Below, piece by piece: positions 15,709-47,698 of a stretch of DNA of 64,000 nt. The DNA comes from a virus. The translations under genes and the position numbers were made by a program. How positions within the stretch are numbered: the first letter of the stretch is position 1; each line of letters starts with the position of its first letter. Under the pieces are notes generated by a model that saw nothing but the letters and a program-made list of their open reading frames with translations, made no database searches and was not told the DNA's origin. Where the stretch lies: positions 1-64,000 of IMG/VR virus record IMGVR_UViG_3300032288_003533, one strand, 5' to 3'.

Positions 15709-16254
15709 ATGGAAAAAGAAACAATAAAAAACATATTTGAATTTATTGAAAGAAAAGATAATAGAAAAATTCCATTTATGTGGAAATTAAAAAATAATGA
15801 ACCAATAACAGAAGATGATTTGATTGTTAATGGTGATTTGGATTTGAGACCTAGTAGCATAGATTACATAGATATAGAATCATTACCAGAAGGATTAAAA
15901 GTTTCTGGTTGTTTAAATCTTATGGGTTCAGATATGAAACTTTTACCAAAAGGCTTGGAAGTTGGTGGGTATTTGGATTTAAGTTATTCACTTATAAACT
16001 CATTACCAGAAGGTTTAAAAGTTGGTGGGAGTTTATCTTTATTTGATTGTGCATATATGACTTCACTGCCAGAAGGCTTGAAGGTTGGGGGTAATTTAGA
16101 TTTAGGGGCTACAAATATAACATCATTACCAAGAGGGTTAAAAGTTGAGGGTTATATAGAGTTGAATGGTACAAAATTAACAGATTACTCAGATGATGAA
16201 TTAAGAAAAATGGTCAAACCTGGATATATAAAAGGAAGAATAATTAAATTTTAA
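15709..16254 (+). CDS. Short-LRR family protein (array 1, ~6 repeats)
   Basis: Same caps and repeat consensus as 15125. Confidence 0.9.
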   Translation: MEKETIKNIFEFIERKDNRKIPFMWKLKNNEPITEDDLIVNGDLDLRPSSIDYIDIESLPEGLKVSGCLNLMGSDMKLLPKGLEVGGYLDLSYSLINSLPEGLKVGGSLSLFDCAYMTSLPEGLKVGGNLDLGATNITSLPRGLKVEGYIELNGTKLTDYSDDELRKMVKPGYIKGRIIKF

Positions 16255-16257
16255 TTA

Positions 16258-16737
16258 ATGGAAAAAGAAACACTAAAAAAGATATTTGATTTTCTTGAAA
16301 AGAATGATAATAAAAGAAAACCACTTATGTGGAAATTAAAAAACAATATACCAATAACAGAAAAAGATGATTTGATTGTTAAAGGTAGTTTGGATTTATC
16401 TAGTTCAAACATAACCTCACTACCAAAAGGTTTGGAAGTTAAAGGTGGTTTAAGTTTATATGAATCAGAAATAATCTCCTTACCAGAAGGCTTGAAGGTT
16501 GGGGGTGATTTAGATTTAAGAAATTCATATATAGAAAGTTTACCAGAAGGATTGGAAGTTGGGGATGAATTGGATTTAGCATATACATACATAACATCAT
16601 TACCAAAAGGCTTAAAAGTTGGGGGGCTTTTGATTATAATTGAGAGTGATTTATTAAAATATTCTGATGAAGAAATAAGAAAAATGATTGAACCTGGGTA
16701 TATTAAAAAGAAAATAGTTAGAGAATATTATAGATAA
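16258..16737 (+). CDS. Short-LRR family protein (array 1, ~5 repeats)
   Basis: Same caps and repeat consensus as 15125. Confidence 0.9.
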   Translation: MEKETLKKIFDFLEKNDNKRKPLMWKLKNNIPITEKDDLIVKGSLDLSSSNITSLPKGLEVKGGLSLYESEIISLPEGLKVGGDLDLRNSYIESLPEGLEVGDELDLAYTYITSLPKGLKVGGLLIIIESDLLKYSDEEIRKMIEPGYIKKKIVREYYR

Positions 16738-16761
16738 TTTACTATATTTGCATAAAAAAAC

Positions 16762-17559
16762 ATGGACAAAGAACTTTTAAAAGAAATATTATCAATCCCC
16801 TCCTATTCAGGCAAAGAAACAAAGCTGGTTGATTTTATTACCAATTTTTTAAATACTAATGATATCAAATTCACAGTAGATGAGATGAAAAACATTTATT
16901 GTGTAAAAGGTGAAGCGGAGTATTATCCTTGTGTTGTAGCACACACAGATACTGTCCATAACAACACTTTTATAGATGTTAGGACTGAACTTAAACCAAA
17001 CTCCAAAAGAGCCTTAAAAGAGGCTTATAAGGGTTATGATGCAAAAGGAAAACCAACAGGAATTGGTGGTGATGACAAGGCTGGAGTATTTGCTTGTCTT
17101 ACCTTATTAAAGGAATTGCCAGTAATAAAAGCAGCCTTTTTTGTTTCAGAAGAAATTGGTTGCGTGGGATCACTAAAAGCTGATGCAAATTTTTTCCTAG
17201 ATGTGGGTTATGCCATTCAATTTGATGCCCCCTTTGATTGGATGGTAAGTGAAATATCATCTGGGGTTAGATTATTTGATAGAGATAGTAAGTTCTTCAC
17301 AAAGATAGATAAGGTATTAACAGAAAACACAAACCCCCAATATCAATCACACCCATATACCGATATATTTGCCTTAAAGAAATTATTTGATTTTAGTTGT
17401 GTTAATATATCAATAGGATATTATGATTATCACACAAAGGATGAATATGTTGTTTTAGAGGATGTGGAGAAAGGAATTAAAATGGGCAGAGAAATGATAG
17501 AAAGTTTGGGATGTGAAAAATATTACAAAAGATACAAACCATTAAGAATATTAGGATAA
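16762..17559 (+). CDS. M20/M28-clan zinc peptidase
   Basis: AHTDTV, GGDDKAG, SEEIG, QFD and HTKDE metal-ligand motifs. Confidence 0.88.
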   Translation: MDKELLKEILSIPSYSGKETKLVDFITNFLNTNDIKFTVDEMKNIYCVKGEAEYYPCVVAHTDTVHNNTFIDVRTELKPNSKRALKEAYKGYDAKGKPTGIGGDDKAGVFACLTLLKELPVIKAAFFVSEEIGCVGSLKADANFFLDVGYAIQFDAPFDWMVSEISSGVRLFDRDSKFFTKIDKVLTENTNPQYQSHPYTDIFALKKLFDFSCVNISIGYYDYHTKDEYVVLEDVEKGIKMGREMIESLGCEKYYKRYKPLRILG

Positions 17560-17560
17560 A

Positions 17561-17591
17561 AAGAAATGGGGGTTATTAGCCCCCATTTTTA
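17561..17591. terminator. Bidirectional intrinsic terminator
   Basis: aaatgggggttattagcccccatttt between convergent genes. Confidence 0.8.
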
Positions 17592-17592
17592 T

Positions 17593-19593: not shown

Positions 19594-19647
19594 ATCTTAT
19601 TGTTTTTTTATAAATATGCTACAAATTTTATACTAATCAAATAGTTT

Positions 19648-19722: not shown

Positions 19723-19735
19723 TATAAAAATATAT

Positions 19736-19750: not shown

Positions 19751-19792
19751 CTTTCTCATAAAAAAAATAAACATTTATAAAAAATCAAAATT

Positions 19793-20616: not shown

Positions 20617-20620
20617 AAAA

Positions 20621-23722: not shown

Positions 23723-24114
23723 TGAATAGATTAGTTTTCATAAACTCATTAGGTGTTAATTATAAAGGTGATTTTATATATGAATTTATATTTTCATCTT
23801 CTGATTCAGTTTGGGGTGAAAATTGGGAAGCCAAACCATCAAATGGATATCCAAAACCACCAGAATTAAAATATATTACAAAAGTTGGACAATTAACAAC
23901 AGAAGATGTGTCATTATATTTAATACAAAATTCAGATTATTTTTCAATGATTGATTCTGTTGATGGCGTTATTGCACTAGGTTGGGAAATAAATGAAGAT
24001 GTTAAAAATAGATTGGTTTTCAAGTTTGGTGAAACTGAACAAGAAATAAAAAATAAACTATATGAAAGAGATTTAGTATTAGAATTTGAAAAAACAATGG
24101 TATATGAAAATTAA
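23722..24114 (+). CDS. Hypothetical protein
   Basis: 130 aa ORF with TAATG coupling to the upstream gene. Confidence 0.7.
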   Translation: MNRLVFINSLGVNYKGDFIYEFIFSSSDSVWGENWEAKPSNGYPKPPELKYITKVGQLTTEDVSLYLIQNSDYFSMIDSVDGVIALGWEINEDVKNRLVFKFGETEQEIKNKLYERDLVLEFEKTMVYEN

Positions 24115-24883
24115 TGAAAAAGTTATATCCCTTTTAGAGGGGGGGTTTTCAATGCAGACATTAAGAAATATGTCTGACAGTAATATAAATTATTTATATT
24201 CAAAATTAGTGAAAGAACAAACTACACCAATGAAGGGTAGTTTTATAACTAAAAATGAACTAAAGGCAAAGCAATTAGTTGGTCAAGGTTATAATGTTAG
24301 ACTTGAGAAAAAAGAAATGGGGGAGGCAAAGAAGAAGTCACAACCAAAAAATCCTTGGGCAATTTGTACAGCACAATTAAAAAAAGAATTTGGCACATCT
24401 GAAAGAAGTGAGTGGACAAAACCACAACTTAAAAAATATGAAAGATGTGTTATGGATGTTAAAAAAGGTGTTAAAGAGGGGTTAAATCCAATTGATGTTT
24501 TTATTGAAAATGAAATGGATAGAATGATTGAATCTTATGTTCAACCTAAAATAACAAAGAGTGAATTATTATTACATTTAAGAGAACAAGATGCACCAAC
24601 AACAAAACCAGTTGTGAAGCCAGCAAAACCAACTACAAAACCAACAAGAAGGGATAATCCATTTATTAACCCAAATCCAAAAGTTAATCCAGCACCAAAA
24701 GCAAATACTGAAACAAAACCAGTTGTGAAGCCAGCAAAACCAACTACAAAACCAACAAGAAGGGATAATCCATTTATTAACCCAAATCCAAAAGTTAATC
24801 CAACACCAAAAGCAATCTCACCTGAAAAAGCAAAAAATGCTATCATAGATAATATTATGGACTTAATAAATTTTGAAAAATAA
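24104..24883 (+). CDS. Hypothetical protein with 37 aa (111 bp) internal duplication
   Basis: Start reassigned to ATG 24104. Contains an NPWAICT motif and TKPVVKPAKPTTKPTRRDNPFINPNPKVNP twice (24602 and 24713). Confidence 0.7.
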   Translation: MKINEKVISLLEGGFSMQTLRNMSDSNINYLYSKLVKEQTTPMKGSFITKNELKAKQLVGQGYNVRLEKKEMGEAKKKSQPKNPWAICTAQLKKEFGTSERSEWTKPQLKKYERCVMDVKKGVKEGLNPIDVFIENEMDRMIESYVQPKITKSELLLHLREQDAPTTKPVVKPAKPTTKPTRRDNPFINPNPKVNPAPKANTETKPVVKPAKPTTKPTRRDNPFINPNPKVNPTPKAISPEKAKNAIIDNIMDLINFEK

Positions 24884-31201: not shown

Positions 31202-31903
31202 ATGAATAGTTTAAGAATACTAGAAGCAAATGAAATTGGTCATGGAATATTAATTGAGGCAGATGCTGGGTGGATTAATCCCAAAGACCAATTAAATATT
31301 AATTTAATACAAGAAAACAAGAAGTTAGATTATAAGAACCCTTTTGAATTTTATGCTGTATTGCAAAAGCATGATGTACCAAATAGAAATGGTAGAACAT
31401 ACCCTGAAAAAATATTAAAAAGGGAGGCTGAAAGATACAAAAAAATTATTGAAAAGGGTTTATCTACTTCTGAATTAAATCACCCCGAATCATCCTTAAT
31501 TGACTTAGATAGAGTTGCTCACTTAATAACAGATATTTGGTGGGATAATAATATACTAATGGGCAAATTATTGTTATTAACTTCTCCTGGCTTCCATGAG
31601 AGGGGTATTGTATCAACCAAGGGTGATGTTGCCGCAAATCTAATGAGGCAAGGAGTAAGCCTAGGAATCAGTTCTAGGGGGGTTGGATCACTTAAAAAAG
31701 TTGGGGAGAAAAATGAGGTTCAAGATGATTTTGAATTGATTTGTTTTGATTTGGTTTCATCGCCATCAACGCCTGGGGCATACCTATTCTCAAATAAGGA
31801 AGATAGGCATAAGTATGATGAGAAATTGGAAGAAGAAAAGAAAATTGACCCATCAAATAATATATTAAAATTAATGAATAAACTTGATAGTTATTTAAAA
31901 TGA
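31202..31903 (+). CDS. Prohead core protease (T4 gp21-like)
   Basis: NRNGRTYP, ELNHPE, GISSRGVGS and FDLVSSPSTPGAY. Confidence 0.95.
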   Translation: MNSLRILEANEIGHGILIEADAGWINPKDQLNINLIQENKKLDYKNPFEFYAVLQKHDVPNRNGRTYPEKILKREAERYKKIIEKGLSTSELNHPESSLIDLDRVAHLITDIWWDNNILMGKLLLLTSPGFHERGIVSTKGDVAANLMRQGVSLGISSRGVGSLKKVGEKNEVQDDFELICFDLVSSPSTPGAYLFSNKEDRHKYDEKLEEEKKIDPSNNILKLMNKLDSYLK

Positions 31904-33210
31904 AAAAAGAAACAATAAGAAAAATAATTGATTTTATTGAAAATCAAGAAAAAAAAGCACCAACAATTAAAGGTTCTTTCTTATGGAAACTTGTGGTTCA
32001 GGAACCATTAACAAAAGAAGAGTTAAATCATAAAGGTAATTTGGATTTGACACATTCAACAATAACACAATTACCAAAAGGATTGAAAGTTGGGGGATAT
32101 TTAAATTTAGGAGCAACAGAAATAGAATTTTTACCAGAAGGATTGGAAGTTGGAGGTGGTTTATCTTTAGCATTTTCAAATATAAAATCCTTACCAAAAG
32201 GCTTGAAAGTTAGGGGGGATTTGAATTTAGATAATACAAAAATAACTTCATTACCAGAAGGATTGAAAGTTGGGGGTGTTATATATGCAACAGATTCTAA
32301 TCTACTTAATTTATTAGAAATACCAAAAAACATAGAAACTGAAGGAATTATAACTAACACCAAATTATTACTTAATCCAAATTTAAAAATAAATAGGGGT
32401 TTGAATTTATCAAATTCAAAAATAACATCCTTACCAAAAGGATTAAAAGTTAATGGTAATTTGATATTGAGTATTTCAAAAATAACAGAATTACCAAAAG
32501 GTTTGGAAGTTGGAGGTGATTTGGACTTAAATAATTCAAAAATAACCTCATTACCAGAAGGATTGAAAGTTGGAGGTATGATTTATGCAAATATGTTTAA
32601 TTTAGTAGAAATACCAAAAAATATAGAAACTATAGGAATTATAACTAACACCAATGTACTACTTTCAAGTTTAACAATAAAAAATAACTTGTATTTAGCA
32701 GGTTCAAAAATAACCTCATTACCAAAAGGCTTGAAAGTTTATGGGAATATGAGTTTAGGGCAGAGTAAAATAAAAACATTACCAGAAGGGTTAGAAGTTG
32801 GTGGTTGGCTAAATATTTCTGATACTATGATAAGAACATTACCAAAAGGATTAAAAGTTGGTGGTTCTCTGGTTATATCTTATACAAGGATAGGAAAACT
32901 ACCAAAAGGATTAAAAGTTGGGGGTATTATCTATGCAGATAAAACTTATCTATCTAATATAGATGAAATACCAAAAGATGTAATAACTAGTGGAATTTTA
33001 ACTCACAACAAATTAATAATTAATCCAAATTTACCAATAAATAATGACTTAGATTTATCTAAGTCAACAATAAATTCATTACCAAAAGGATTAAAAGTTA
33101 ATGGTAATTTAAATATTAAGAAATCAAGATTGGCAGTACATTCAGACAATGGTTTATTAGAAATGATTGGGGATGATGGCTATATAAAAGGTTCAATAAT
33201 TAGATATTAA
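31900..33210 (+). CDS. Short-LRR family protein (array 2) with three atypical inserted segments
   Basis: 436 aa, ATGA overlap with the protease stop. Standard repeats are interrupted three times by IYA...EIPKNIETxGIITNT. Confidence 0.9.
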   Translation: MKKETIRKIIDFIENQEKKAPTIKGSFLWKLVVQEPLTKEELNHKGNLDLTHSTITQLPKGLKVGGYLNLGATEIEFLPEGLEVGGGLSLAFSNIKSLPKGLKVRGDLNLDNTKITSLPEGLKVGGVIYATDSNLLNLLEIPKNIETEGIITNTKLLLNPNLKINRGLNLSNSKITSLPKGLKVNGNLILSISKITELPKGLEVGGDLDLNNSKITSLPEGLKVGGMIYANMFNLVEIPKNIETIGIITNTNVLLSSLTIKNNLYLAGSKITSLPKGLKVYGNMSLGQSKIKTLPEGLEVGGWLNISDTMIRTLPKGLKVGGSLVISYTRIGKLPKGLKVGGIIYADKTYLSNIDEIPKDVITSGILTHNKLIINPNLPINNDLDLSKSTINSLPKGLKVNGNLNIKKSRLAVHSDNGLLEMIGDDGYIKGSIIRY

Positions 33211-33611
33211 TGGAAATAGCAACATTAAAAAACATATTTAATTTCCTTGAAGGAAGTGAAAAAAAGTTCTCCATAAAATGGAAAATGATGAATAAAATCC
33301 CCTTTACTAAAGAACAATTACACGTCAAAGGTGATTTGGATTTACAAGGGGAAGACATACAACAATTGCCAGATGGGCTATATGTTAAACGTAATTTATT
33401 GTTAAATGCCACACCAATAAAAAAATTGCCAAAAGGTTTAAGAGTTGGTGGCAATTTGGAATTACAAGATTGTGAAAATTTAAAATCCCTACCAAAAGAT
33501 TTAAAAGTTCGTGGGGGTATATGGCTTGCTGGTACACCATTAGGAAGAATGTCAGATGAGAAAATATTAAACATAGTAAAACCAGATGGTTATATAGGTA
33601 AAATATATTAA
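33210..33611 (+). CDS. Short-LRR family protein (array 2, ~4 repeats)
   Basis: Same caps and repeat consensus, TAATG coupled. Confidence 0.9.
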   Translation: MEIATLKNIFNFLEGSEKKFSIKWKMMNKIPFTKEQLHVKGDLDLQGEDIQQLPDGLYVKRNLLLNATPIKKLPKGLRVGGNLELQDCENLKSLPKDLKVRGGIWLAGTPLGRMSDEKILNIVKPDGYIGKIY

Positions 33612-33612
33612 A

Positions 33613-34203
33613 ATGAAAGAAGAAACATTAGGAAAGATATTTGAATTTATCAAAGAAAACAGCAAACAAAATTTACCATTATTTTGGAAAATGAAAAATA
33701 ATATACCATTAACAGAAGAAGATTTGACTGTTAAAGGTGATTTAAATTTACATAATTCAAAAATAACATCCTTACCAGATGGATTAAAAGTTGAGGGTGA
33801 ATTGGATTTATCATATTCAAATATAAAATCATTACCAAAAGGTTTAATAGTTAATAGCCACTTAATATTAGAAGAATCAGAAATACGTTCTTTACCAGAA
33901 GGTTTAAAAGTTGGGGGCAATTTAATGTTAGCAAGTTGTGAATATATTTTTTCATTACCAAAAGGATTAAAAGTTGGACATATTTTAGATTTAACAAAAT
34001 CAAATATAAAAACATTACCAGAAGGATTGGAGGTTGGACATAGTTTATGGCTATTTGGATGTTGGGGTTTAACCTCATTACCAAAAGGCTTGAAAGTTGG
34101 GGGTGACTTAAATATTTATAAAACAAAATTAGAAGAATATTCAGATGATGAATTAAGAGAAATGATTAAACCAGGATTTATAAAAGGTTCAATAAATAGA
34201 TAA
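33613..34203 (+). CDS. Short-LRR family protein (array 2, ~7 repeats)
   Basis: Same caps and repeat consensus. Confidence 0.9.
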   Translation: MKEETLGKIFEFIKENSKQNLPLFWKMKNNIPLTEEDLTVKGDLNLHNSKITSLPDGLKVEGELDLSYSNIKSLPKGLIVNSHLILEESEIRSLPEGLKVGGNLMLASCEYIFSLPKGLKVGHILDLTKSNIKTLPEGLEVGHSLWLFGCWGLTSLPKGLKVGGDLNIYKTKLEEYSDDELREMIKPGFIKGSINR

Positions 34204-34205
34204 TA

Positions 34206-34796
34206 ATGGAAAAAGAAACATTAAAAAGAATATTTGATTTTATTGAAGGGAATGAAGGGCATAAAAAACCATTATTTTGGAAATTGAAAAATAATATACC
34301 ATTAACAGAAGAAGATTTAACTGTTAAAGGTGATTTAAATTTAGAAAATTCAAAAATAACATCCTTACCAGATGGTTTGAAAGTTGAGGGTGATTTGATG
34401 TTAACCTTTTCAAAAATAACCTCATTACCAGATAATTTACAAGTTGGGGGTCATTTAAACATAGTTGGTTGTGATGCCATAAACTCATTACCAAAAGGAT
34501 TAAAAGTTGGCGACAGTATTCAATTATCCCCAAAACGAATAGTTTCCATTGGGGAAGGATTGTTTGTTGGTGGGGATTTAAATTTATTTAATAGCCAAAT
34601 AAAATCATTACCCCAAGGAGTTAAAATTGGGGGGGAGTTAGGTTTATCCTTTACAAAACTAGAAACATTACCAAAAGGTTTGATAGTTAAAGGTGGTTTG
34701 GAGATTGCTGGAACACCATTAGAAAACTATTCAAATAAAGAATTAAGAGATATGGTTAAACCTGGTGTTATAAAAGGTCCAATAATTAGAGATTAG
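34206..34796 (+). CDS. Short-LRR family protein (array 2, ~7 repeats)
   Basis: Same caps and repeat consensus. Confidence 0.9.
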   Translation: MEKETLKRIFDFIEGNEGHKKPLFWKLKNNIPLTEEDLTVKGDLNLENSKITSLPDGLKVEGDLMLTFSKITSLPDNLQVGGHLNIVGCDAINSLPKGLKVGDSIQLSPKRIVSIGEGLFVGGDLNLFNSQIKSLPQGVKIGGELGLSFTKLETLPKGLIVKGGLEIAGTPLENYSNKELRDMVKPGVIKGPIIRD

Positions 34797-34798
34797 AA

Positions 34799-36022
34799 AT
34801 GAAAATAGAAACATTAAAAAGAATATTTGATTTTATTGAAAATAAAGAAAACAAAAAACATAAAGCCAAAGCAACTTTAAAGTGGAAGTTGTTTTTTAAT
34901 GAACCATTAACAAAAGATGATTTGATTGTTAATGGAAATTTGGATTTGGCAAATTCAAAAATAACATCTTTACCTGAAGGATTGGAAATTAAGGGTACTT
35001 TGGATTTAAGAAATTGCACAAGTTTAACATCATTACCACAAGGATTGAAAGTTGGGGGTAATTTATATTTAATTAGTTCAAAAATAACATCTTTGCCTGA
35101 AGGATTGGAAATTAAGGGTACTTTGGATTTAAGAAATTGCACAAGTTTAACATCATTACCAGAAGGATTAGAAGTTGGTGGTGATTTAAATTTATCTAAT
35201 TGCACAAGTTTAACATCATTACCACAAGGATTGAAAGTTAAAGGAGATTTAGATTTATATGGTTGTAAAAACTTAAAATACTTACCAATAGGATTGATAG
35301 TTGTTGGTGATATAAATTTACAATACTCAACAATAACAACCTTACCAGAAGGCTTAAAAGTTGGTGGTGATTTGAATTTATATAATTGCAAAAGTTTAAA
35401 ATCCCTACCAAAAGTATTGAAAGTTGGTGGTTTTTTAAATTTAAACAAATGCACAAGTTTAACATCATTACCAGAAGGATTAGAAGTTGGGGGTACATTA
35501 TATTTAAAGAATTGTTCCAAATTAAAATCATTACCAATAGGGTTGAAAATTGGGGAGGCTTTGCAATTGAATGATACAAATATAACTACTCTCCCAAAAG
35601 ATTTGAAATTTGTTACTGATTTGGATTTATCAGGTTCTAAAATAATGTCATTACCAGATAATTTACATGTTAGGGGTAGGTTAGATTTGGCTTTTTGCGA
35701 AAATTTAACTTCATTACCAACTGGATTAAAAGTTGATGGTGATTTAATATTAACCTTTGCAAAAATAACCTCATTACCAGATAATTTACAAGTTGGCAAA
35801 TATTTGGATTTGGGTAATACAAAAATAACTTCACTACCTAAAGGGTTAAAAGTTGGTAGTAGATTGAATATAAGTGGTACACAAATAACCTCATTACCAA
35901 AAGGACTAAAAGTTGGAGAAAATTTACTTATAGTGAACACAAATTTAAAAAAATATACTGATGAGGAATTAAGAGAAATGGTTAAGCCTGGATTTATAAA
36001 AGGTGAAATATATAGAGGATAA
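34799..36022 (+). CDS. Short-LRR family protein (array 2, ~17 repeats)
   Basis: 407 aa, containing a recent internal duplication offset by 123 bp (34954 and 35077). Confidence 0.9.
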   Translation: MKIETLKRIFDFIENKENKKHKAKATLKWKLFFNEPLTKDDLIVNGNLDLANSKITSLPEGLEIKGTLDLRNCTSLTSLPQGLKVGGNLYLISSKITSLPEGLEIKGTLDLRNCTSLTSLPEGLEVGGDLNLSNCTSLTSLPQGLKVKGDLDLYGCKNLKYLPIGLIVVGDINLQYSTITTLPEGLKVGGDLNLYNCKSLKSLPKVLKVGGFLNLNKCTSLTSLPEGLEVGGTLYLKNCSKLKSLPIGLKIGEALQLNDTNITTLPKDLKFVTDLDLSGSKIMSLPDNLHVRGRLDLAFCENLTSLPTGLKVDGDLILTFAKITSLPDNLQVGKYLDLGNTKITSLPKGLKVGSRLNISGTQITSLPKGLKVGENLLIVNTNLKKYTDEELREMVKPGFIKGEIYRG

Positions 36023-38147: not shown

Positions 38148-39929
38148 ATGGGAGCATTATTAGAATCAGGTCTTGTTGGTAATATTGGGTTGAAACACCT
38201 TAAAGTTATCAAAGAGGACACAATTAACAAATGGAATAAATTAGGATTCCTTGAAGGCTTAAAAGGTCATTTAAAAGAGAATGTTGCACAGTTGTATGAA
38301 AACCAAGCATCATATCTTATTAATGAAGCAGCTAGTACATCTGATACTGGTGCATTTGAAACAGTTGTTTTCCCAATTGTTAGGAGAGTATTCTCTAAAT
38401 TATTGGCAAATGATATTGTTTCAGTACAAGCAATGAATTTACCTATTGGTAAATTATTCTTCTTTGTACCTCAAATTCAAGAAAGAACTAATACTACTGA
38501 ACATTGGGCACCTTATGGTTCACCTAATGCAGCAACTGGTCAAACACCATCTTCTGGTTATGATTCAAACACATATAAAAATCTATATGATAGATTTTAT
38601 GAAGGTAGCGAGCCTGGTTTAAATCCAGAAGGTCTTTATGACTATTCAAAAGGGCAATATTCTGCTATAACATCAAATTTAACTACTGTTGCTTGGTCTA
38701 ATGGTGAATTAATTGCTTCTGCTTATTCACAGACTGACTATAGAAAAGTATTAGTTGTTATGTCTGGATTCACAGGTGATGGTGCAGGTAAATTAATTGG
38801 CCCAGATGGTCATCCAATGGATAATGAAAGTTTCTTAGCTGGTTTAGTAGTTTTAGGAGTATCAACAAATTCAACAACTTCAGGTAGTACAAATACTCCA
38901 TATTTATTTAGAGTTGTTACTCAAAAATATGGAAAAGGTATTGTGCAATATGGATCACAAACATCACATACATTTGGTAGTTATACTGATGGTGGTGGTA
39001 CTTATAATAATATTTGTGATGCTGAAGGTAAAATATATTTAGAGATTGATTTACAAACTCCAGCAACTGTGGGTGCAAATTCTTTAGATGGTTATACTGG
39101 ATCAACATTTACATCTTCAACAGCAGCAGGTAATGCGCTAAAATGTGTTTATAGAGTTTATAAAAATCTTGAATTTGAAGATAAAATTGGTGAGGTTTCT
39201 TTTGATTTACAATCTGTAACTGTTTCAGTAACTGAACGTAAATTAAGAGCACAATGGTCACCAGAAATGGCACAAGATGTTGCTGCATTCCATAACATTG
39301 ATGCTGAAGCAGAATTAACTGCTTTATTATCAGAGCAAATTGCAGCTGAAATTGATAGAGAAATTTTAAGAGACCTTAGAAAAGGTGCTGCTTGGAACTT
39401 ACGTTGGGATTACAATGGTTGGAAGAGATTGGGTACAAATGCTATCCCTTACACACAGAAAGACTGGAATCAAACATTAATCACAACTATTAACCAAGTA
39501 TCAGCACAAATCCACAAATCAACATTGAGAGGTGGAGCAAACTGGATTGTGGTTTCTTCTGAAGTTAGTGCAGTTTTTGATGATTTAGAATACTTCCATG
39601 TATCAAATGCATCTCCTGAACAAGACCAATATAATATGGGTATTGAAAGAGTTGGTACATTAGCTGGACGTTACCAAGTTTATAGAGATCCTTATTTCCC
39701 AGCAAATACAATTTTGTTAGGACACAAAGGAACATCTTTACTTGATACTGGATATATTTATGCACCATATGTACCTCTGCAATTAACACCAACTATGTAT
39801 AATCCATTTAACTTTACACCAATCAAAGGTATTATGACACGTTATGCTAAGAAAATGGTTAATAATCGTTTCTATGGTAGAATTACTGTTGATGGTGTTA
39901 GAACATTTGACTTACAAGAGTTGAGATAA
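38148..39929 (+). CDS. Major capsid protein (T4 gp23-like)
   Basis: PIVRRVF...VSVQAMNLP, RKLRAQWSPEMAQD, DAEAELTALLSEQIAAEIDREI, YAPYVPL and GIMTRY. Confidence 0.97.
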   Translation: MGALLESGLVGNIGLKHLKVIKEDTINKWNKLGFLEGLKGHLKENVAQLYENQASYLINEAASTSDTGAFETVVFPIVRRVFSKLLANDIVSVQAMNLPIGKLFFFVPQIQERTNTTEHWAPYGSPNAATGQTPSSGYDSNTYKNLYDRFYEGSEPGLNPEGLYDYSKGQYSAITSNLTTVAWSNGELIASAYSQTDYRKVLVVMSGFTGDGAGKLIGPDGHPMDNESFLAGLVVLGVSTNSTTSGSTNTPYLFRVVTQKYGKGIVQYGSQTSHTFGSYTDGGGTYNNICDAEGKIYLEIDLQTPATVGANSLDGYTGSTFTSSTAAGNALKCVYRVYKNLEFEDKIGEVSFDLQSVTVSVTERKLRAQWSPEMAQDVAAFHNIDAEAELTALLSEQIAAEIDREILRDLRKGAAWNLRWDYNGWKRLGTNAIPYTQKDWNQTLITTINQVSAQIHKSTLRGGANWIVVSSEVSAVFDDLEYFHVSNASPEQDQYNMGIERVGTLAGRYQVYRDPYFPANTILLGHKGTSLLDTGYIYAPYVPLQLTPTMYNPFNFTPIKGIMTRYAKKMVNNRFYGRITVDGVRTFDLQELR

Positions 39930-41643: not shown

Positions 41644-41653
41644 TTTTAATACT

Positions 41654-42119: not shown

Positions 42120-42668
42120 TCATTCCCATTCAGGATCCTCATCTAGTATATCGCCTTTAATATATCCAGGCTTAACCATTTTTTTTAATTGTTCTTCAGT
42201 GTATTTAGTTAACTTTGTGTAAGTTATATTTAATCCATCATCAACTTTCAATCCTTTTGGTAATGAGTTTAATTTGTAACAATGATTTAAATATAATGTA
42301 CCATTAACTTTTAACCCATCTGGTAATGATTCAAGTTGTTCGCAACCATATAAATCCAAATCACCACTAACTTTCAATCCTTTTGGTAATGATGTTATAT
42401 TTGAATATTGTAAAGTTAAATCACCCCCAACTTCCAATCCTTCTGGTAATGAAGTTATTTTTGAATAGTCTAAATTCAAATTGCCACTAACTTTCAATCC
42501 TTCTGGTAATGAAGTTATTTTAAAATTTGATAAATCCAAATCATCATCAATGTTTAATTCATCTTTTGTTAATGGTGAACCATTTGTTATTTTCCATAAA
42601 AATGGAATTTTTGCACCATCTAACTTTTCAAGAAAATTAAATATATTCTTTAGTGTTTCTTTTTCCAT
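42120..42668 (-). CDS. Short-LRR family protein (array 3, ~6 repeats)
   Basis: Same caps and repeat consensus. Confidence 0.9.
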   Translation of the reverse strand: MEKETLKNIFNFLEKLDGAKIPFLWKITNGSPLTKDELNIDDDLDLSNFKITSLPEGLKVSGNLNLDYSKITSLPEGLEVGGDLTLQYSNITSLPKGLKVSGDLDLYGCEQLESLPDGLKVNGTLYLNHCYKLNSLPKGLKVDDGLNITYTKLTKYTEEQLKKMVKPGYIKGDILDEDPEWE

Positions 42669-43198
42669 TATCTAATTATATTATTTATATATCCAGGATT
42701 AACCATTTGCCTTAATTCCTCAGTTGAATATTTTGTTAATGGTGTATTTTTAATAAACAAACGACCCCCAACTTTCAACCCTTTTGGTAATGATGTTATA
42801 TTTGAATGTTTCAAATCCAAAAATCTCCCAACTTTTAATCCTTCTGGTAGTGAAGTTATATTTGCACAATCAAATAAAGATAAACTCCCACCAACTTTCA
42901 ACCCTTTTGGTAATGATGTTATATTTGAATATCCCAAATCCAAAAACCCCCCAACTTCTAATCCTTCTGGTAATGATTGTATATTTTTACAACCATATAA
43001 ACTTAAATTAGCCTCAACTTTCAATCCATCTGGTAATGATTCAATATCTGTTTTTGTTAAATCCAAATCCCCTTTAACAATCAAATCATCTTTTTCTGTT
43101 ATTGGTATATTGTTTTGTAATTTCCACATAAGTGGTGCATTATGCTCACCATTTTCTTCAAGAAAATCAAATATCTTTTTTAGTGTTTCTTTTTCCAT
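42668..43198 (-). CDS. Short-LRR family protein (array 3, ~6 repeats)
   Basis: Same caps and repeat consensus, AGATAATG coupling. Confidence 0.9.
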   Translation of the reverse strand: MEKETLKKIFDFLEENGEHNAPLMWKLQNNIPITEKDDLIVKGDLDLTKTDIESLPDGLKVEANLSLYGCKNIQSLPEGLEVGGFLDLGYSNITSLPKGLKVGGSLSLFDCANITSLPEGLKVGRFLDLKHSNITSLPKGLKVGGRLFIKNTPLTKYSTEELRQMVNPGYINNIIR

Positions 43199-43845
43199 TA
43201 TCTTTCTATTTTTCCAAGTATAAATCCTGGTTTAACCATATCTCTTAATTCCTTATCTGAAAATTTTGCTAACCCAGACTCGTCAATGGCTAAATTACCA
43301 TAAACCTCCAACCCTTTTGGTAATGAAGTTAAATTTTTGCAACGCATTAAATTTAACAATCTATTAACTTTTAATTCTTTTGGTAAAAATTCTATCTCTG
43401 AATCCTCCAAAGATAATATACCAACTTCCATTCCTTCTGGTAATGATTCCAAATATGGGGTAGTATTTAAATTTAATTCACCTTCAATTTTCAATCCTTC
43501 TGGTAATGATTGTATTTGTGTATATGATAAATCCAAATCTAATTTAACTTTTAATCTTTTTGGTAATTTTCTTATTTCTGTATAATTTAAAACTAAATGT
43601 CCCCCAACTTCCAATCCTTCTGGCAATGATTTAATATCTGAATTTTGTAAAAACAAATCACCTTCAACTTTCAATCCTTCTGGCAATTCTTCTATCTCTA
43701 AATCTGATAAATTCAAATCACCTTTAACATGTAAATCATCTTCTGTTAATGGAAAACCATTTGACCATTTCCACCTAAGTGGCGTATTCCTATTATCCTT
43801 CTTTTCAAGGAAATTAAATATCTTTTTTAGTGTTTCTTTTTCCAT
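43198..43845 (-). CDS. Short-LRR family protein (array 3, ~8 repeats)
   Basis: Same caps and repeat consensus, AGATAATG coupling. Confidence 0.9.
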   Translation of the reverse strand: MEKETLKKIFNFLEKKDNRNTPLRWKWSNGFPLTEDDLHVKGDLNLSDLEIEELPEGLKVEGDLFLQNSDIKSLPEGLEVGGHLVLNYTEIRKLPKRLKVKLDLDLSYTQIQSLPEGLKIEGELNLNTTPYLESLPEGMEVGILSLEDSEIEFLPKELKVNRLLNLMRCKNLTSLPKGLEVYGNLAIDESGLAKFSDKELRDMVKPGFILGKIER

Positions 43846-43848
43846 TAT

Positions 43849-44271: not shown

Positions 44272-44409
44272 ATCTTATTTTTTATATAAATATCATTATT
44301 CTTTATTTTGATTATGGCTCTCATATTTTGATTTTAAGAGGCTTTTTGTTTTAACCTATTACTATGTCATCTTTATTAAAATATGCTGTTGTGGTTAAAT
44401 TGTGTGTGG

Positions 44410-44949
44410 TTATATCCTAATTATTCCTTGTATATAACCAGGCTTAACCATTTCTCTTAATTCTTCATTAGTAAATTTGGCTAAATTATGTTTATTATCT
44501 ATATTTAAATATCCTTTAACTATTAGTCCTTTTGGTAATCTATTTATTGGTGTGTTCATTATTATTAACCAAGTATTAATCACTAACCCTTCTGGTAGTG
44601 AAGTTACTTTTGAATTTTGTAAATATAAAGAAGTACCAATTTTAATATCATCTGGTATTTTTTTTATATTAGAGTATGATAAATCCAAAATAACACCAAC
44701 TTTCAATCCTTTTGGTAATTCTTCTAATTTTGAAAATCTAGTAATCATATTGCCTTTAACTTCCAAATTATCTGGCAATGATTTTAAATTTGAATCTGAT
44801 AAATCCAAATCACCATTAACAACTAAATCTTCTTTTGTTAGGGGTTCACCAAAATTTAATTTCCAAATAAAGTTATCTCTATTTTTATGTTTTTTGTTTT
44901 CATTCTTCTGAAGAAAATCAAATATTTTTTTTATTGTTTCTTTTTCCAT
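44410..44949 (-). CDS. Short-LRR family protein (array 4, ~6 repeats)
   Basis: Same caps and repeat consensus. Confidence 0.9.
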   Translation of the reverse strand: MEKETIKKIFDFLQKNENKKHKNRDNFIWKLNFGEPLTKEDLVVNGDLDLSDSNLKSLPDNLEVKGNMITRFSKLEELPKGLKVGVILDLSYSNIKKIPDDIKIGTSLYLQNSKVTSLPEGLVINTWLIIMNTPINRLPKGLIVKGYLNIDNKHNLAKFTNEELREMVKPGYIQGIIRI

Positions 44950-45557
44950 TATCTAATTATTTGCTCCTTTATAAATCCAGGTTTAACCATATTTCTTAAT
45001 TCTTCATCAGAAAATTTTACTAATGGTGATCCACTTATAATTAAATTCCCCCTAACTTTCAACCCTTTTGGTAATGATGTTAAACTTGTGCAATTTTCTA
45101 AATACAAATCACGACCAACTTCCAATCCTTCTGGCAAAGATGTTAAACTTGTGCAATTTTCTAAATCTAAATTATGCGCAACTTTCAATCCTTTTGGTAA
45201 AGATATTAAATTTGTTGAATTTTCTAAATATAAAGATGCTCCAAGTTCTAATCCTCTTGGCAGTGAAATTAAATCTTCACAACCTTCTAAATCTAAACGA
45301 CCCCCAACTTTTAAGTTATCAGGTAATGATTTAATAGATGAATAATTTAAAATCAAATAACCACCAACTTTCAACCCATCTGGTAATGAGGTTATTTTTG
45401 AATATGATAAATCCAAATTACCTTTTACATTTAACTCTTCTTCTGTTATTGGTTCATCAAATTTTAATTTCCAAATAATGCTATCCCTATCTTTATGTTT
45501 TTTATTTTCTTCCTTTTCAAGAAAATCAAGTATATTTTTTATTGTTTCTTTTTCCAT
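44949..45557 (-). CDS. Short-LRR family protein (array 4, ~7 repeats)
   Basis: Same caps and repeat consensus. Confidence 0.9.
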   Translation of the reverse strand: MEKETIKNILDFLEKEENKKHKDRDSIIWKLKFDEPITEEELNVKGNLDLSYSKITSLPDGLKVGGYLILNYSSIKSLPDNLKVGGRLDLEGCEDLISLPRGLELGASLYLENSTNLISLPKGLKVAHNLDLENCTSLTSLPEGLEVGRDLYLENCTSLTSLPKGLKVRGNLIISGSPLVKFSDEELRNMVKPGFIKEQIIR

Positions 45558-46036
45558 TATCTTTCTATATTTCCTTTTATATAACCATCTGGTTTGACCA
45601 TTTCTCTTATTTTTTCATCTGAAAGTTTTGCTAATGGAGTGTTTACAATATTTAAATCACATTTAACTTTTAAACCTTTTGGTAATGTTTCTATATCTGA
45701 ATATGATAAATCCAGATTACGACCAACATATAAATCACCTGGCAAGGATTTAAAACGGGTCCATTCAAAATTCAAATCACCCTCAACAAATAATTTTTCT
45801 GGGAATGTTTTTAAACTTGAGAACCGAAAATCAGCATCTCCTATAACTTTTAACCCTTTTGGTAAATGTTGTATATTTAAGCCAGATATATCCAAATCAC
45901 CTCTAACAATTAAATCTTCTTTTATTGATGGGTCATTAAACATAAATTTCCACCTTAAAGTTCCTTTGTCTTTATGTTTTTTATTATCTTCTTTTTCAAT
46001 AAATTCAAGTATATTTTTTAGTGTTTCTATTTCCAT
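45557..46036 (-). CDS. Short-LRR family protein (array 4, ~5 repeats)
   Basis: Same caps and repeat consensus. Confidence 0.9.
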   Translation of the reverse strand: MEIETLKNILEFIEKEDNKKHKDKGTLRWKFMFNDPSIKEDLIVRGDLDISGLNIQHLPKGLKVIGDADFRFSSLKTFPEKLFVEGDLNFEWTRFKSLPGDLYVGRNLDLSYSDIETLPKGLKVKCDLNIVNTPLAKLSDEKIREMVKPDGYIKGNIER

Positions 46037-46506
46037 TATCTAATTATATTTCCTTTAAATGAACCATTATTTAAATTTTTATTTCTTCTTATTTCATCAT
46101 CTGTATATTTTTTGGCAAGGAAGGATTCTCCTATATATAAATTACCACCAACATATAAATTTTTTGGAATTTCTTCAATATCTGAATGTCTGAAAAATAA
46201 ATCACCCCCAACATATAAATTGTCTGGTAATGATTCTATATTTGTATGTGATAAGTTAAAACTATCCTTAACATATAACCCTTCTGGTAATGATTCTATT
46301 AGTGAACCCAATAGCCACAATTTACCTTCAACTCTCATCCCATCAGGTAATGAGGTTACAGTTGTAAATTCCAAATTCAAATTGCCTTTTATATTTAAAT
46401 CCTCTTTTGTTAGTTCATTATTTACCCATTTCCATAAAAATGGTGTTTTGATATCATCATTTTCTTCAAGGAATTCAAATATTTTTTTTATTGTTTCTTT
46501 TTCCAT
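46036..46506 (-). CDS. Short-LRR family protein (array 4, ~5 repeats)
   Basis: Same N-cap, variant C-cap (KYTDDEIRR...GSFKGNIIR). Confidence 0.9.
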   Translation of the reverse strand: MEKETIKKIFEFLEENDDIKTPFLWKWVNNELTKEDLNIKGNLNLEFTTVTSLPDGMRVEGKLWLLGSLIESLPEGLYVKDSFNLSHTNIESLPDNLYVGGDLFFRHSDIEEIPKNLYVGGNLYIGESFLAKKYTDDEIRRNKNLNNGSFKGNIIR

Positions 46507-47213
46507 TATCTAACTATTTTTCCTTTTATAAATCCAGGTTGAATCATCTTTCTTAATCTATAATTACTAATTTCATCTAAATGGGAAAGATTCAACATTA
46601 TAGATCCATAAACTTTCAACCCTTTTGGTAATGAGGTTAAATCTGTTAGTCTTAAATCCAAATCTCCCCCAACTTTCAATCCTTCAGGTAATGATTGTAT
46701 ATTTTTACAACCAAATAACACCAAATCTTTCCTAACTTCAAGTCCTTCTGGTAATGAAGTTATTTTTGTATTATTTAAAACTAAATGCCCTCCAACTTTC
46801 AATCCTTCTGGTAATGAAGTTATTTTTGTATCATTTAAATACAAATCCCTACCAACTTTCAATCCTTTTGGTAGGAAGGTTATATCTGTATTAGATGACA
46901 ACAAATTACCACCAACTTCCAATCCTTCTGGTAATGAAGTTATTTTTGTTGACCCTAAATTTAAATCACCACCAACTTTCAAACCTTCTGGCAATGAGGT
47001 TATTTTTGATTTTCTTACATCAAAATTACCACCAACTTTTAATCCTTCTGGTAATGAGGTTATTGTTGCTCCATAAAACCACAAATTACCTATAACATCT
47101 AAATCTTCTTTGGTTATTGGCTTATTATTTAATATTTTCCATTTAAATGGTGCTCTATGTTCTCCTTTCTCTTCAAGGAATTCAAATATTCTTTTTAATG
47201 TTTCTTTTTCCAT
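46506..47213 (-). CDS. Short-LRR family protein (array 4, ~9 repeats)
   Basis: Same caps and repeat consensus. Confidence 0.9.
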   Translation of the reverse strand: MEKETLKRIFEFLEEKGEHRAPFKWKILNNKPITKEDLDVIGNLWFYGATITSLPEGLKVGGNFDVRKSKITSLPEGLKVGGDLNLGSTKITSLPEGLEVGGNLLSSNTDITFLPKGLKVGRDLYLNDTKITSLPEGLKVGGHLVLNNTKITSLPEGLEVRKDLVLFGCKNIQSLPEGLKVGGDLDLRLTDLTSLPKGLKVYGSIMLNLSHLDEISNYRLRKMIQPGFIKGKIVR

Positions 47214-47698
47214 TATCTAACTATTTTTCCTTTTATATAACCATCTGAACCAATCATCTTTAATAAAACAGAATCTGAAAGTTTTGCCAATGGTGTTTTT
47301 ATAAGATATAAATTTTCTTCAACTTTCAACCCTTCTGGTAATGATGTTAAACTTGTGCAATTTTCTAAATATAAATAATCCCCAACTTCCAATCCTTCTG
47401 GCAATGATGTTAAACTTGTGCAATTTTCTAAAGATAACTTCCCCCCAACTTTTAACCCTTTTGGTAAGGATGTTAAATTTGTGCAATTATATAAATTTAA
47501 ATAATCTTTAATTTCCAATCCTTCTGGTAATGATGTTATTTTTAAATTTGCCAAATTTAAATTATCTACAATCAAATCATCTTTTGTTAATGGTTCATTG
47601 AAAAATAATTTCCATCTTAAAGTTCCCTTGTTTTTATTTTTTTTGTTTTCTTTATCTTCAAGAAAATCAAATATTTTTTTTAATGTTTTATTTTCCAT
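47213..47698 (-). CDS. Short-LRR family protein (array 4, ~5 repeats)
   Basis: TAATG-coupled to the upstream 500 aa gene. Confidence 0.9.
   Translation of the reverse strand: MENKTLKKIFDFLEDKENKKNKNKGTLRWKLFFNEPLTKDDLIVDNLNLANLKITSLPEGLEIKDYLNLYNCTNLTSLPKGLKVGGKLSLENCTSLTSLPEGLEVGDYLYLENCTSLTSLPEGLKVEENLYLIKTPLAKLSDSVLLKMIGSDGYIKGKIVR

What the first reader, a model, noticed from the sequence alone, without database searches (positions are those of the whole stretch)
15709..47698. LRR paralogs are mosaics sharing modules across distant arrays
Seen: blocks recur in otherwise different genes, including across arrays on opposite strands. GLKVGGSLSLFDCA is in 15709 and 42668. NNIPITEKDDLIVKG is in 16258 and 42668. 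WKLFFNEPLTKDDLIV is in 34799 and 47213. GCKNIQSLPEGL is in 42668 and 46506. LENCTSLTSLPEGLEVG is in 44949 and 47213. LTFxKITSLPDNLQVG is in 34206 and 34799. The C-cap variant LL(E/K)MIGxDGYIKG is in 31900 and 47213. Inference: cassette-like gene conversion or recombination using the conserved ttaccagaagg...aaagttgg scaffold DNA as crossover points, generating new binding surfaces combinatorially.
Basis: partly seen in the sequence, partly recalled or inferred. Interest (0 to 1): 0.8.

Follow-up and report, generated by a model that had tools for sequence, protein, structure and literature searches.

The report
Recombining LRR gene family in phage
An uncultured T4-like phage carries 17 small leucine-rich-repeat genes in four arrays. 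They are patchworks of one another, made by ordinary homologous recombination at their conserved repeat and cap DNA: a familiar mechanism acting on a phage gene family I found described nowhere.

Summary
Observation confirmed. All seven shared peptides are in the named genes, and similar modules are about nine times commoner between genes than column shuffling predicts.

Interpretation supported in its core:
- The front and back ends of the 17 paralogs give conflicting trees (calibrated partition test p=0.003; AU tests reject swapped trees).
- Related phage contigs show explicit recombinants, each with MaxChi p<0.0005: a fusion of 33613 and 34206; a chimera of the 42668 type (array C) with the 15709 type, sitting in array A; and a swapped C-cap in the window's own 42668.
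- Two-unit indels and whole-gene gains and losses also separate strains that are about 95% identical in protein.
- Three of the four crossovers or indel junctions I located lie in the ttaccagaagg...aaagttgg scaffold. The fourth lies in the conserved N-cap.

Caveats. Most of the seven cited blocks are old: they occur in orthologues in other phages, and codon identity in similar units is 80% against a 65% codon-bias baseline. Two blocks are uninformative. Nothing points to a programmed cassette machine: no reverse transcriptase was found, all genes are complete, and orthologues are mostly 86-98% conserved.

Function as binders is inferred, not shown. This scan reached the same conclusion on at least four other related phage contigs.

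The parts
15125..16737 (+). Array A: three LRR genes, 15125-15691 (188 aa), 15709-16254 (181 aa) and 16258-16737 (159 aa)
   Evidence: ORFs and translations; segmentation into N-cap, 4-5 units and C-cap. The related phage R1 has 7 genes here and R2 has 5-6.
31900..36022 (+). Array B, directly after the prohead protease: 31900-33210 (436 aa), 33210-33611 (133), 33613-34203 (196), 34206-34796 (196), 34799-36022 (407)
   Evidence: The protease gene 31202-31903 matches phrog_207. R1 has 253-133-196 here and L067 has 435-133-196-366.
42120..43845 (-). Array C: 43198-43845 (215 aa), 42668-43198 (176), 42120-42668 (182)
   Evidence: R1 has 154-215-134-188 and L081 has 134-154-215-134-176-188.
44410..47698 (-). 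Array D: 47213-47698 (161 aa), 46506-47213 (235), 46036-46506 (156), 45557-46036 (159), 44949-45557 (202), 44410-44949 (179). Neighbouring genes overlap by one base (TAATG).
   Evidence: R1 lacks 47213 and has three extra genes between the 235-aa and 156-aa genes.
   Evidence: The within-window triplet test is only moderate (p=0.018).
42826..42922 (-). SLSLFDCA unit of 42668 (gene nt 277-373), 90-96% identical to 15709 nt 286-382 (window 15994-16090). This shared unit contains the crossover of the R2 chimera.
42668..42767 (-). It derives from a 134-aa paralog that is absent from this genome but present in L081 and R1.
   Evidence: Triplet test: informative sites read almost all A up to nt 430 (31 of 34), then 12 B in a row; MaxChi 33.6, p<0.0005. 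38/38 nt identical to L081_2317. Breakpoint at nt 430-432 inside AAAGTTGG.
33673..33805 (+). Stretch of 33613 (gene nt 61-193) that is 92-98% identical to the same part of 34206 (window 34266-34398). It is the substrate of the unequal crossover that fused the two genes in R1, L067 and probably L099.
   Evidence: Painting. The R1 and L067 single 196-aa gene is the 5' end of 33613 plus the rest of 34206: MaxChi 101 and 110, p<0.0005. Crossover interval nt 62-139.
34937..35182 (+). Two-unit (41 aa, 123 nt) tandem duplication inside 34799 (units 1-2 and 3-4). It is absent from the L067 orthologue.
   Evidence: Alignment with a clean 41-aa gap whose junction lies in SLP(Q/E)GL. TRF finds period 123, 4 copies, 78% matches.
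45053..45173 (-). Two NCTSLT units of 44949 (gene nt 385-505), 88-98% identical to 47213 nt 259-379 (window 47320-47440)
   Evidence: N tree groups 34799+47213 (UFBoot 90) and C tree groups 31900+47213 (89). Constraint AU tests.
35723..35807 (+). LTFAKITSLPDNLQVG unit of 34799 (gene nt 925-1009), 85-96% identical to 34206 nt 169-253 (window 34374-34458) at a different ordinal position (unit 14 against unit 2)

Best explanation
The 17 genes are a birth-and-death multigene family of small capped LRR solenoids. Each has an N-cap, 3 to about 16 units of 20-21 aa, and a C-cap.

Their mosaic structure comes from general homologous recombination between paralogs. The DNA stretches that every copy must conserve serve as homology patches: the ...ITSLPxGLxVGG scaffold of each unit, the N-cap and the C-cap.

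Three kinds of event follow:
- In-register unequal crossovers add or delete units, fuse neighbouring genes, and add or remove whole genes.
- Non-reciprocal exchange (gene conversion) moves caps and unit blocks between copies.
- These exchanges also occur between arrays on opposite strands.

A crossover in the scaffold keeps both the reading frame and the solenoid register, so most products remain foldable.

Shown here: recombinants, breakpoints, unit and gene indels between strains, and incongruent trees within this genome.

Inferred: that the proteins are binders whose variable xLxLxx face sets specificity; that new combinations are selected for; and that the phage's own T4-type recombination system does the work.

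Exchange runs on an evolutionary, strain-to-strain timescale. It is not a programmed per-infection process.
For: Family anatomy.

Fold: AlphaFold2 solenoid, mean pLDDT 91.7. Foldseek hits to SspH1, IpaH and Leptospira LRR domains.

Within the window:
- N-block and C-block trees conflict.
- Calibrated partition test p=0.003.
- Site incompatibility is higher between blocks than within them, p=0.004.
- Patchy 60-180-nt stretches at 88-98% identity sit in genes that are about 63-71% identical overall.

Between strains (R1 shares 93-97% protein identity in most flanking genes):
- L084_10001 is 42668-type for nt 1-338 and L087_8816/15709-type from nt 360. Informative sites read mostly A (33 of 37), then 46 B in a row; p<0.0005. 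It sits in array A, whereas 42668 sits in array C.
- The single 196-aa gene of R1 and L067 is 33613 5' plus 34206 3'.
- The window's 42668 carries the C-cap of a 134-aa gene that is missing here.
- Exact two-unit (41-aa) indels separate the 176-aa from the 134-aa gene and the 407-aa from the 366-aa gene.
- All four arrays differ in gene content between W, R1, L081, L067 and L083/L084.

Breakpoints lie in the scaffold or the N-cap. The scaffold is 69% identical between units against 55% for the variable half, and 1.7% of inter-gene unit pairs share an exact run of at least 20 nt.

Assembly error is unlikely. The R1 arrangement recurs in contigs from six or more samples, and the L084 chimera recurs in L083.
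Against: Within-window triplet tests are only moderately significant (p=0.012-0.018), and the Mantel test of N against C similarity is not decisive (p=0.077).

The longest exact match between paralogs is 46 nt, and intra-gene repeats are only 64-83% identical. Most exchange visible inside this genome is therefore old.

Two of the seven blocks cannot be told apart from saturated common ancestry.

No recombinase gene was found on the 76-kb record, although the record is only about 24% complete.

pN/pS on orthologue pairs shows relaxed constraint at variable positions (0.5 to 1.65) against 0.16 in the scaffold. It does not show clear positive selection, and the counts are small and contaminated by recombinant tracts.

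Function is untested.
Confidence: 0.85

Rival explanations
1. There is no exchange. The shared blocks reflect common ancestry of unit types, a strong repeat consensus and AT-rich codon bias, and the mosaic appearance is an illusion.
For: Codon bias alone gives 65% identical codons at identical residues. WKLFFNEPLTKDDLIV and DGYIKG fit that baseline. Several cited pairs are simply each other's closest paralogs in the N-cap, namely 34799/47213 and 16258/42668. The blocks are also present in orthologues of other phages.
Against: Partition test p=0.003 and AU rejections. Explicit chimeras with long uninterrupted runs of parent-specific sites, p<0.0005. Similar units occur at different ordinal positions.
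Confidence: 0.05
2. A programmed diversification system. Candidates are a donor-cassette gene-conversion system like lamprey VLR assembly or bacterial antigenic variation, or a reverse-transcriptase (DGR) system. Either would rewrite LRR genes at high frequency.
For: The modular LRR units with conserved flanks resemble the VLR cassette logic (my own knowledge, not tested here). The arrays differ between close strains.
Against: All 17 genes are complete capped ORFs, and I saw no partial silent cassettes. No reverse transcriptase on the 76-kb record. Orthologues are mostly 86-98% identical between phages. Shared modules within the genome have partly decayed synonymous sites. No long identical tracts.
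Confidence: 0.03
3. The chimeras are artefacts of short-read metagenome assembly across repeated paralogs from co-occurring strains.
For: All sequences are metagenome contigs. Crossovers lie in stretches identical between the parents, which is where assemblers can switch.
Against: The same arrangements recur in independent samples: the R1 type in L089-L093 and L095, the fusion gene also in the more diverged L067, the L084 chimera in L083, and the exact 42668 protein on 4 contigs. The identical stretches at the crossovers are only about 20-60 nt.
Confidence: 0.04

Closest known systems
Modular shuffling in the hyperplastic regions of T4-type phages through recombination at short conserved cassettes (PeSLs; Arbiol et al. 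2010, PMC2839356; Comeau et al. 2014, PMC4122927)
   Same: A T4-like phage pair about 95% identical in protein differs mainly by insertions, deletions and replacements of small non-essential genes, produced by recombination between short repeated sequences (abstract read). The W/R1 comparison here looks the same.
   Different: Here the recombination substrate is coding DNA of the genes themselves (scaffold, N-cap, C-cap). It is not an intergenic promoter/stem-loop cassette: genes in arrays C and D overlap by one base, so there is no room for one. Exchange also occurs inside genes and yields chimeric proteins.
Tandem LRR gene clusters that evolve by unequal crossing-over and gene conversion, such as plant NLR/R-gene clusters and Listeria internalins (my own knowledge, not read here)
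   Same: Tandem arrays, variable repeat number, chimeric paralogs, variation concentrated in the xLxLxx positions, conserved scaffold.
   Different: The genes are encoded by a virus of bacteria and are tiny (133-436 aa), with no NB-ARC, signal peptide or anchor domain seen. There are four arrays on both strands of one phage genome.
LRR domains of IpaH/SspH/YopM-type bacterial effectors, and the LRR protein gp47 of Edwardsiella phage Edno5 (PMC6372524)
   Same: Short 20-21-residue LRR units with an LPxxL motif. Foldseek prob 0.98 to SspH1 LRR. tblastn finds 52% identity over 120 aa to Edno5 gene 47.
   Different: No NEL E3-ligase or other effector domain. The family has its own N-cap and C-cap. 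It is a multigene family in a lytic-type T4-like phage, not a single moron gene in a prophage.
Lamprey VLR assembly from LRR cassettes (my own knowledge)
   Same: New LRR proteins arise by joining modules at short homologies in conserved LRR framework DNA.
   Different: There is no incomplete acceptor gene, no silent partial cassettes and no evidence of a dedicated enzyme. Events are evolutionary, not somatic or per generation.
T4 internal proteins (IPI-III) with a capsid-targeting sequence (my own knowledge; reviews PMC3012670 and PMC9026906 were listed but not read)
   Same: Small, variable, non-essential-looking genes with a shared N-terminal leader. Array B sits between the prohead protease and the capsid genes.
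   Different: Packaging and cleavage are untested. The N-terminal helices are modelled as part of the folded cap (pLDDT 74-86). The FLE/FIE motif is not the canonical (L/I)xE arrangement.

Membership tests
Leucine-rich repeat superfamily (short bacterial-type units) | Tandem 20-29-residue units with a conserved Leu pattern that form a curved solenoid | tested here: met
   101 units of 20-21 aa with the pattern xLxLxx(C)xxIxSLPxGLxVGG. AlphaFold2 solenoid with regular short strands, pLDDT 91.7. Foldseek hits to SspH1, IpaH, Leptospira LRR and VLR structures.
Leucine-rich repeat superfamily (short bacterial-type units) | Match to a curated Pfam LRR model above its cut-off | tested here: inconclusive
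   Only 34799 passes one model (LRR_EndoS, 28.7 against 27.9 bits). Four of the six proteins tested have no Pfam LRR match and 47213 is below cut-off.
IpaH/SspH NEL effectors | C-terminal novel E3 ligase (NEL) domain after the LRR | tested here: not met
   The proteins end in a ~30-aa C-cap directly after the last unit. No NEL hit in Pfam.
Diversity-generating retroelement target | Nearby reverse transcriptase and template/variable repeat pair | tested here: not met
   No RVT_1 match in the 76-kb record. Caveat: the record is about 24% complete.
Donor-cassette antigenic or VLR-type variation | One expressed incomplete or complete acceptor gene plus arrays of silent partial cassettes | tested here: not met
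   All 17 copies are complete ORFs with start, N-cap, units, C-cap and stop.
PeSL-mediated modular shuffling (T4-type hyperplastic regions) | Intergenic early promoter plus stem-loop cassettes at the exchange points | tested here: not met
   Genes in arrays C and D share their boundary base (coordinates). The located crossovers lie inside coding scaffold or cap DNA. No promoter scan was run.
Birth-and-death multigene family with unequal crossing-over and gene conversion | Copy-number and repeat-number differences between close relatives, chimeric genes with sharp breakpoints, incongruent phylogenies along the gene | tested here: met
T4-type internal (capsid-packaged) proteins | N-terminal capsid-targeting leader removed by the prohead protease; presence in virions | not testable with these tools
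   Only position next to the protease gene and a conserved N-terminal helix are available.

The most novel reading that the evidence does not exclude
The four arrays form a phage-encoded repertoire of binder proteins aimed at variable host targets such as defence proteins or surface structures. They may be loaded into the capsid through the shared N-terminal leader and injected. Recombination of modules between paralogs and between co-infecting strains would be the selected way of producing new specificities. That would make this a viral counterpart of the LRR-based recognition repertoires of plants and jawless vertebrates.
Probability: 0.25. Interest if true: 0.85.

Novelty: new variant of a known kind. 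Interest (0 to 1): 0.5.

Why it matters
Phages are known to shuffle accessory genes, and LRR gene clusters are known to recombine. A phage devoting about 11 kb of a 64-kb stretch to 17 recombining LRR genes is something I found described nowhere. The family has more than 2,300 metagenomic relatives, and the Atlas clusters most like it are almost all viral.

If these proteins are host-directed binders, the arrays would be a natural library of small, stable scaffolds with variable specificity. They would also offer a tractable system for studying how recombination builds new binding proteins during phage-host arms races.

The breakpoints found here tell an experimenter which junctions tolerate swapping.

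Tried and rejected
- Megablast of array B against 50,697 phage records: no match.
- tblastn against the same records found only Edwardsiella phage Edno5.
- Pfam gave only weak LRR hits, and PHROGs gave nothing useful for the LRR genes.
- BLASTN for long high-identity HSPs between paralogs found only four of 41-57 nt at 88-90% identity. I therefore dropped the idea of long recent conversion tracts inside this genome.
- Within-window triplet tests (42668 against 16258/15709; 47213 against 34799/44949) gave only p=0.012-0.018 and poor alignments because repeat numbers differ. I rely on the cross-genome triplets instead.
- The Mantel test was not decisive (p=0.077).
- The swapped-tree AU test alone could over-reject with short alignments, so I calibrated with 638 random codon partitions.
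- pN/pS by position class showed no clear positive selection.
- The L083/L084 gene indel is a clean extra gene, not a fusion.
- Searches for reverse transcriptase and RecA on the record were negative, but the record is incomplete.
- Three literature searches found no description of this family.


Full report
CONTEXT. The window is bases 1-64000 of a 76,232-base IMG/VR virus record that CheckV rates about 24% complete. GC content is about 27%. It carries T4-type head genes: large terminase at 26318, portal at 28082, prohead protease at 31202 and major capsid protein at 38148. The closest cultured capsid relatives are only 42-43% identical: Microcystis phage Mel-JY01 and Flavobacterium phages vB_FspM_immuto.

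THE FAMILY. Seventeen ORFs encode one family of small proteins (133-436 aa), arranged in four arrays:
- Array A: 15125-16737, + strand, 3 genes.
- Array B: 31900-36022, + strand, 5 genes, directly after the protease.
- Array C: 42120-43845, - strand, 3 genes.
- Array D: 44410-47698, - strand, 6 genes.

No further copies lie in the remaining 12 kb of the record.

ANATOMY. Each protein has three parts:
- an N-cap of about 42-46 aa (MEKETLKKIFDFLE...WKL.NN.P.T..DL.V.G);
- 3 to about 16 units of 20 or 21 aa, with consensus xLxLxx(C)xxIxSLPxGLxVGG;
- a C-cap of about 30 aa (...YSDEELR.MVKPGYIKG.I.R).

An AlphaFold2 model of 42668 built from a 23-sequence alignment is a confident solenoid: mean pLDDT 91.7, two N-terminal helices, regular short strands and a helical C-cap. 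Foldseek finds LRR domains of SspH1, IpaH proteins, Leptospira LRR proteins and VLRs. The top hit is a 180-residue chain of a polar flagellar motor structure, 8z5u. Curated Pfam LRR models barely register.

The family has more than 2,300 relatives in metagenome protein collections, and their lengths step by one unit (134, 156, 176-181 aa). The language-model Atlas places it among clusters that are 85-100% viral. Among 50,697 deposited phage genomes, only Edwardsiella phage Edno5 gene 47 matches.

CHECK OF THE OBSERVATION. Four pairs link arrays on opposite strands.

Because the repeat consensus is strong, I tested chance in two ways. First, I shuffled residues within unit columns. That predicts 4.7 inter-gene unit pairs with at least 16 of 21 identical residues; 41 are observed. 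For at least 17 identical the figures are 0.6 predicted and 14 observed.

Second, I looked at codons. AT-rich codon bias gives 65% identical codons at identical residues even between dissimilar units. Similar units reach 80% (p=3e-16). Taken singly, four of the seven blocks exceed the codon-usage expectation at P<0.02 (0.003-0.019), GCKNIQSLPEGL is borderline (P=0.054), and two do not exceed it: WKLFFNEPLTKDDLIV and DGYIKG.

The sharing is therefore real and not simple convergence. It is also not fresh. The longest exact match between two paralogs is 46 nt, and repeats within genes are only 64-83% identical.

IS IT MOSAIC, OR ONLY A FAMILY TREE? WITHIN THE WINDOW. I aligned the N-cap plus first unit (the N block) and the last unit plus C-cap (the C block) of all 17 genes at codon level. 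Nearest neighbours differ between the two ends. For example, 34799 pairs with 47213 in the N block (87% nt), but in the C block 47213 pairs with 44949 and 31900, while 34799 pairs with 33613 and 44410.

The maximum-likelihood trees conflict: N gives 34799+47213 (support 90) and 33613+34206 (96), while C gives 31900+47213 (89) and 34799+44410 (90). The supporting tests are:
- AU tests reject the other block's sister pairs jointly (p=0.010 and 0.003).
- AU tests reject the other block's whole tree (p=1e-6 and 3e-5).
- Whole-tree swaps can over-reject on short alignments, so I calibrated. The likelihood gain from giving each block its own topology is 49.3 lnL units. In 638 random codon partitions of the same sizes it reached that value once (p=0.003).
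- Pairwise site incompatibility is higher between blocks than within them (p=0.004).

A sliding 48-nt 'painting' of each gene against the other 16 shows patches of 60-180 nt at 88-98% identity, inside genes that are about 63-71% identical overall. The donors change along the gene. In 42668, for instance, the donor is 16258 for the N-cap, 46506 for unit 2 and 15709 for unit 4. Some donor units sit at different ordinal positions: 34206 unit 2 matches 34799 unit 14.

DIRECT EVIDENCE FROM RELATED PHAGES. Scans of IMG/VR with the capsid protein and with 42668 returned 100 loci.

One lineage, R1 (for example contig 3300044991_001618, loci L087 and L091), shares 93-97% protein identity with the window in most flanking genes. 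Most window LRR genes have positional orthologues there or in L081, L067 and L084, at 86-98% identity. Paralogs within the window are at most 66% identical. The paralogs are therefore old and are not being homogenised.

All four arrays nevertheless differ in gene content (gene lengths in aa):
- Array A: window 188-181-159; R1 167-156-116-181-174-183-159.
- Array B: window 436-133-196-196-407; R1 253-133-196; L067 435-133-196-366.
- Array C: window 215-176-182; R1 154-215-134-188; L081 134-154-215-134-176-188.
- Array D: window 161-235-156-159-202-179; R1 235-198-(gap)-179-157-156-159-202-179.

L083 and L084 differ by one whole 176-aa gene.

Three chimeras are unambiguous by a maximum-chi-square triplet test with permutation.

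1. L084_10001 sits in array A of phage R2, between orthologues of 13801 and 16762. It follows the 42668 type, an array C gene in the window and in L081, up to nt 338. From nt 360 it follows the L087_8816/15709 type. Informative sites read mostly A (33 of 37), then 46 B in a row; p<0.0005. The crossover interval is ...AATATAACTTCACTACCAGAAGG..., that is ITSLPEG of the shared SLSLFDCA unit. The 73-kb R2 record holds no other close copy of 42668. Sequence has therefore moved between arrays on opposite strands.

2. The single 196-aa gene of R1 and L067 follows 33613 for the first 62-114 nt and 34206 for the rest (MaxChi 101 and 110, p<0.0005). The L099 orthologue, also a single 196-aa gene, was not triplet-tested. 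This is the product expected from an unequal crossover between the two tandem genes, inside the stretch where they are 92-98% identical (gene nt 61-193).

3. The window's own 42668 follows its L081 orthologue to nt 430, then switches to the C-cap of a neighbouring 134-aa gene. That gene exists in L081 and R1 but not in the window. Twelve of 12 informative sites and 38 of 38 nt support the switch (p<0.0005). The breakpoint is inside AAAGTTGG.

Two further differences are exact in-register indels of two units (41 aa). One separates the 176-aa from the 134-aa gene. The other separates the 407-aa 34799 from its 366-aa L067 orthologue, with the junction in SLP(Q/E)GL.

Assembly error is unlikely. 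The R1 arrangement recurs in contigs from at least six samples, the fusion gene recurs in the more diverged L067, the L084 chimera recurs in L083, and the exact 42668 protein is recorded on four contigs.

TIMING. The cited blocks are present, often with the same codons, in orthologues in the other phages. Their codon identity sits only part of the way from the 65% baseline to 100%. The three chimeras, the unit indels and the gene gains and losses show that the same process has continued since that split.

MECHANISM. The scaffold half of a unit (consensus ACATCATTACCAGAAGGATTGAAAGTTGGGGGT) is 69% identical between units of different genes, against 55% for the variable half. About 1.7% of inter-gene unit pairs, roughly 80 pairs, share an exact run of at least 20 nt. 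The N-cap begins with up to 42 identical nt.

These stretches are the natural substrates for general homologous recombination, which is very active in T4-type phages (established knowledge). No recombinase gene lies on this partial record.

An exchange in the scaffold preserves both frame and solenoid register. That explains why every copy is an intact ORF.

I found nothing that indicates a dedicated diversification machine. There is no reverse transcriptase, there are no partial silent cassettes, and the orthologues are conserved.

FUNCTION (INFERRED). Variation is concentrated at unit positions 0, 2, 4, 5, 8 and 10, which include the xLxLxx face. pN/pS between orthologues is 0.16 in the scaffold, against 0.5 at the concave positions and 1.65 at the loop positions. 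The counts are small and include recombinant tracts.

This pattern fits binder proteins with a variable recognition face, but no partner is known. Array B's position between the prohead protease and the capsid genes, together with the shared N-terminal helix, makes a packaged, injected role conceivable. Another first-reader note on this genome proposes this; I did not test it.

COMPARISON WITH WHAT IS KNOWN.
- The closest phage precedent is modular shuffling in T4-type hyperplastic regions by recombination at short conserved PeSL cassettes. It was described for a phage pair with 95.8% protein identity (PMC2839356). Here the homology lies within the coding DNA, and the products include chimeric proteins.
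- The closest general precedent is the birth-and-death evolution of tandem LRR gene clusters (my own knowledge).
- The unit type resembles the LRR domains of IpaH, SspH and YopM, but there is no ligase domain.
- Three literature searches found no description of such a family in a phage.
- Follow-up agents of this scan reached the same conclusion on at least four other related phage contigs.

VERDICT. Recombination at conserved scaffold and cap DNA is supported. 'Cassette-like' holds only in the loose sense. The mechanism is ordinary; the gene family and its scale in a phage are the interesting part.

Noticed in passing
window 38148-39929: The major capsid protein is 593 aa, but the PHROG capsid profile covers only residues 303-570, so about 300 N-terminal residues are unexplained. 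It is also only 83% identical to the R1 orthologue, while most neighbouring genes are 93-98% identical.
   Followed up: no
window 24601-24815: A 111-nt tandem duplication with 99% matches (1.9 copies) inside the ORF 24086-24883, much fresher than any LRR repeat.
   Followed up: no
window 36436-38121: A 561-aa gene between array B and the capsid gene, full of acidic D/E/M repeats (periods 12-36 nt) with no PHROG match. It may be a scaffold-like protein. It is 76% identical to R1.
   Followed up: no
window 34786-35940 (- strand) and other antisense ORFs across the arrays (e.g. 44887-45345, 45594-46043, 46112-46513): Long open frames run antisense to the LRR genes (up to 384 aa). They co-vary with the sense genes and are most likely by-products of the repeat composition, not genes.
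   Followed up: partly
window 12440-13765: A 441-aa ORF on the - strand has no counterpart in the R1 or R2 loci that cover this neighbourhood, so there is a gene-level indel outside the LRR arrays. The neighbouring 10502-12205 is only 79% and 45% identical.
   Followed up: no
PDB 8z5u chain 0 versus the 42668 model: The best structural match (E 4.5e-5, 24% identity, 177 alignment columns against a 180-residue chain) is a chain in a polar flagellar motor cryo-EM structure, ahead of the IpaH and SspH LRR domains.
   Followed up: no
L090:6229-6498: In one R1-type contig the orthologue of 46036 is open for only 89 aa, against 156 aa in five sister contigs. This may be a disrupted copy or an assembly difference.
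   Followed up: no
L091:17741-18502 versus window 31900-33210: The first gene of array B is 436 aa in the window, with three super-repeats of about 120 aa that each contain an IYA...EIPK...IITN spacer.
   Followed up: partly
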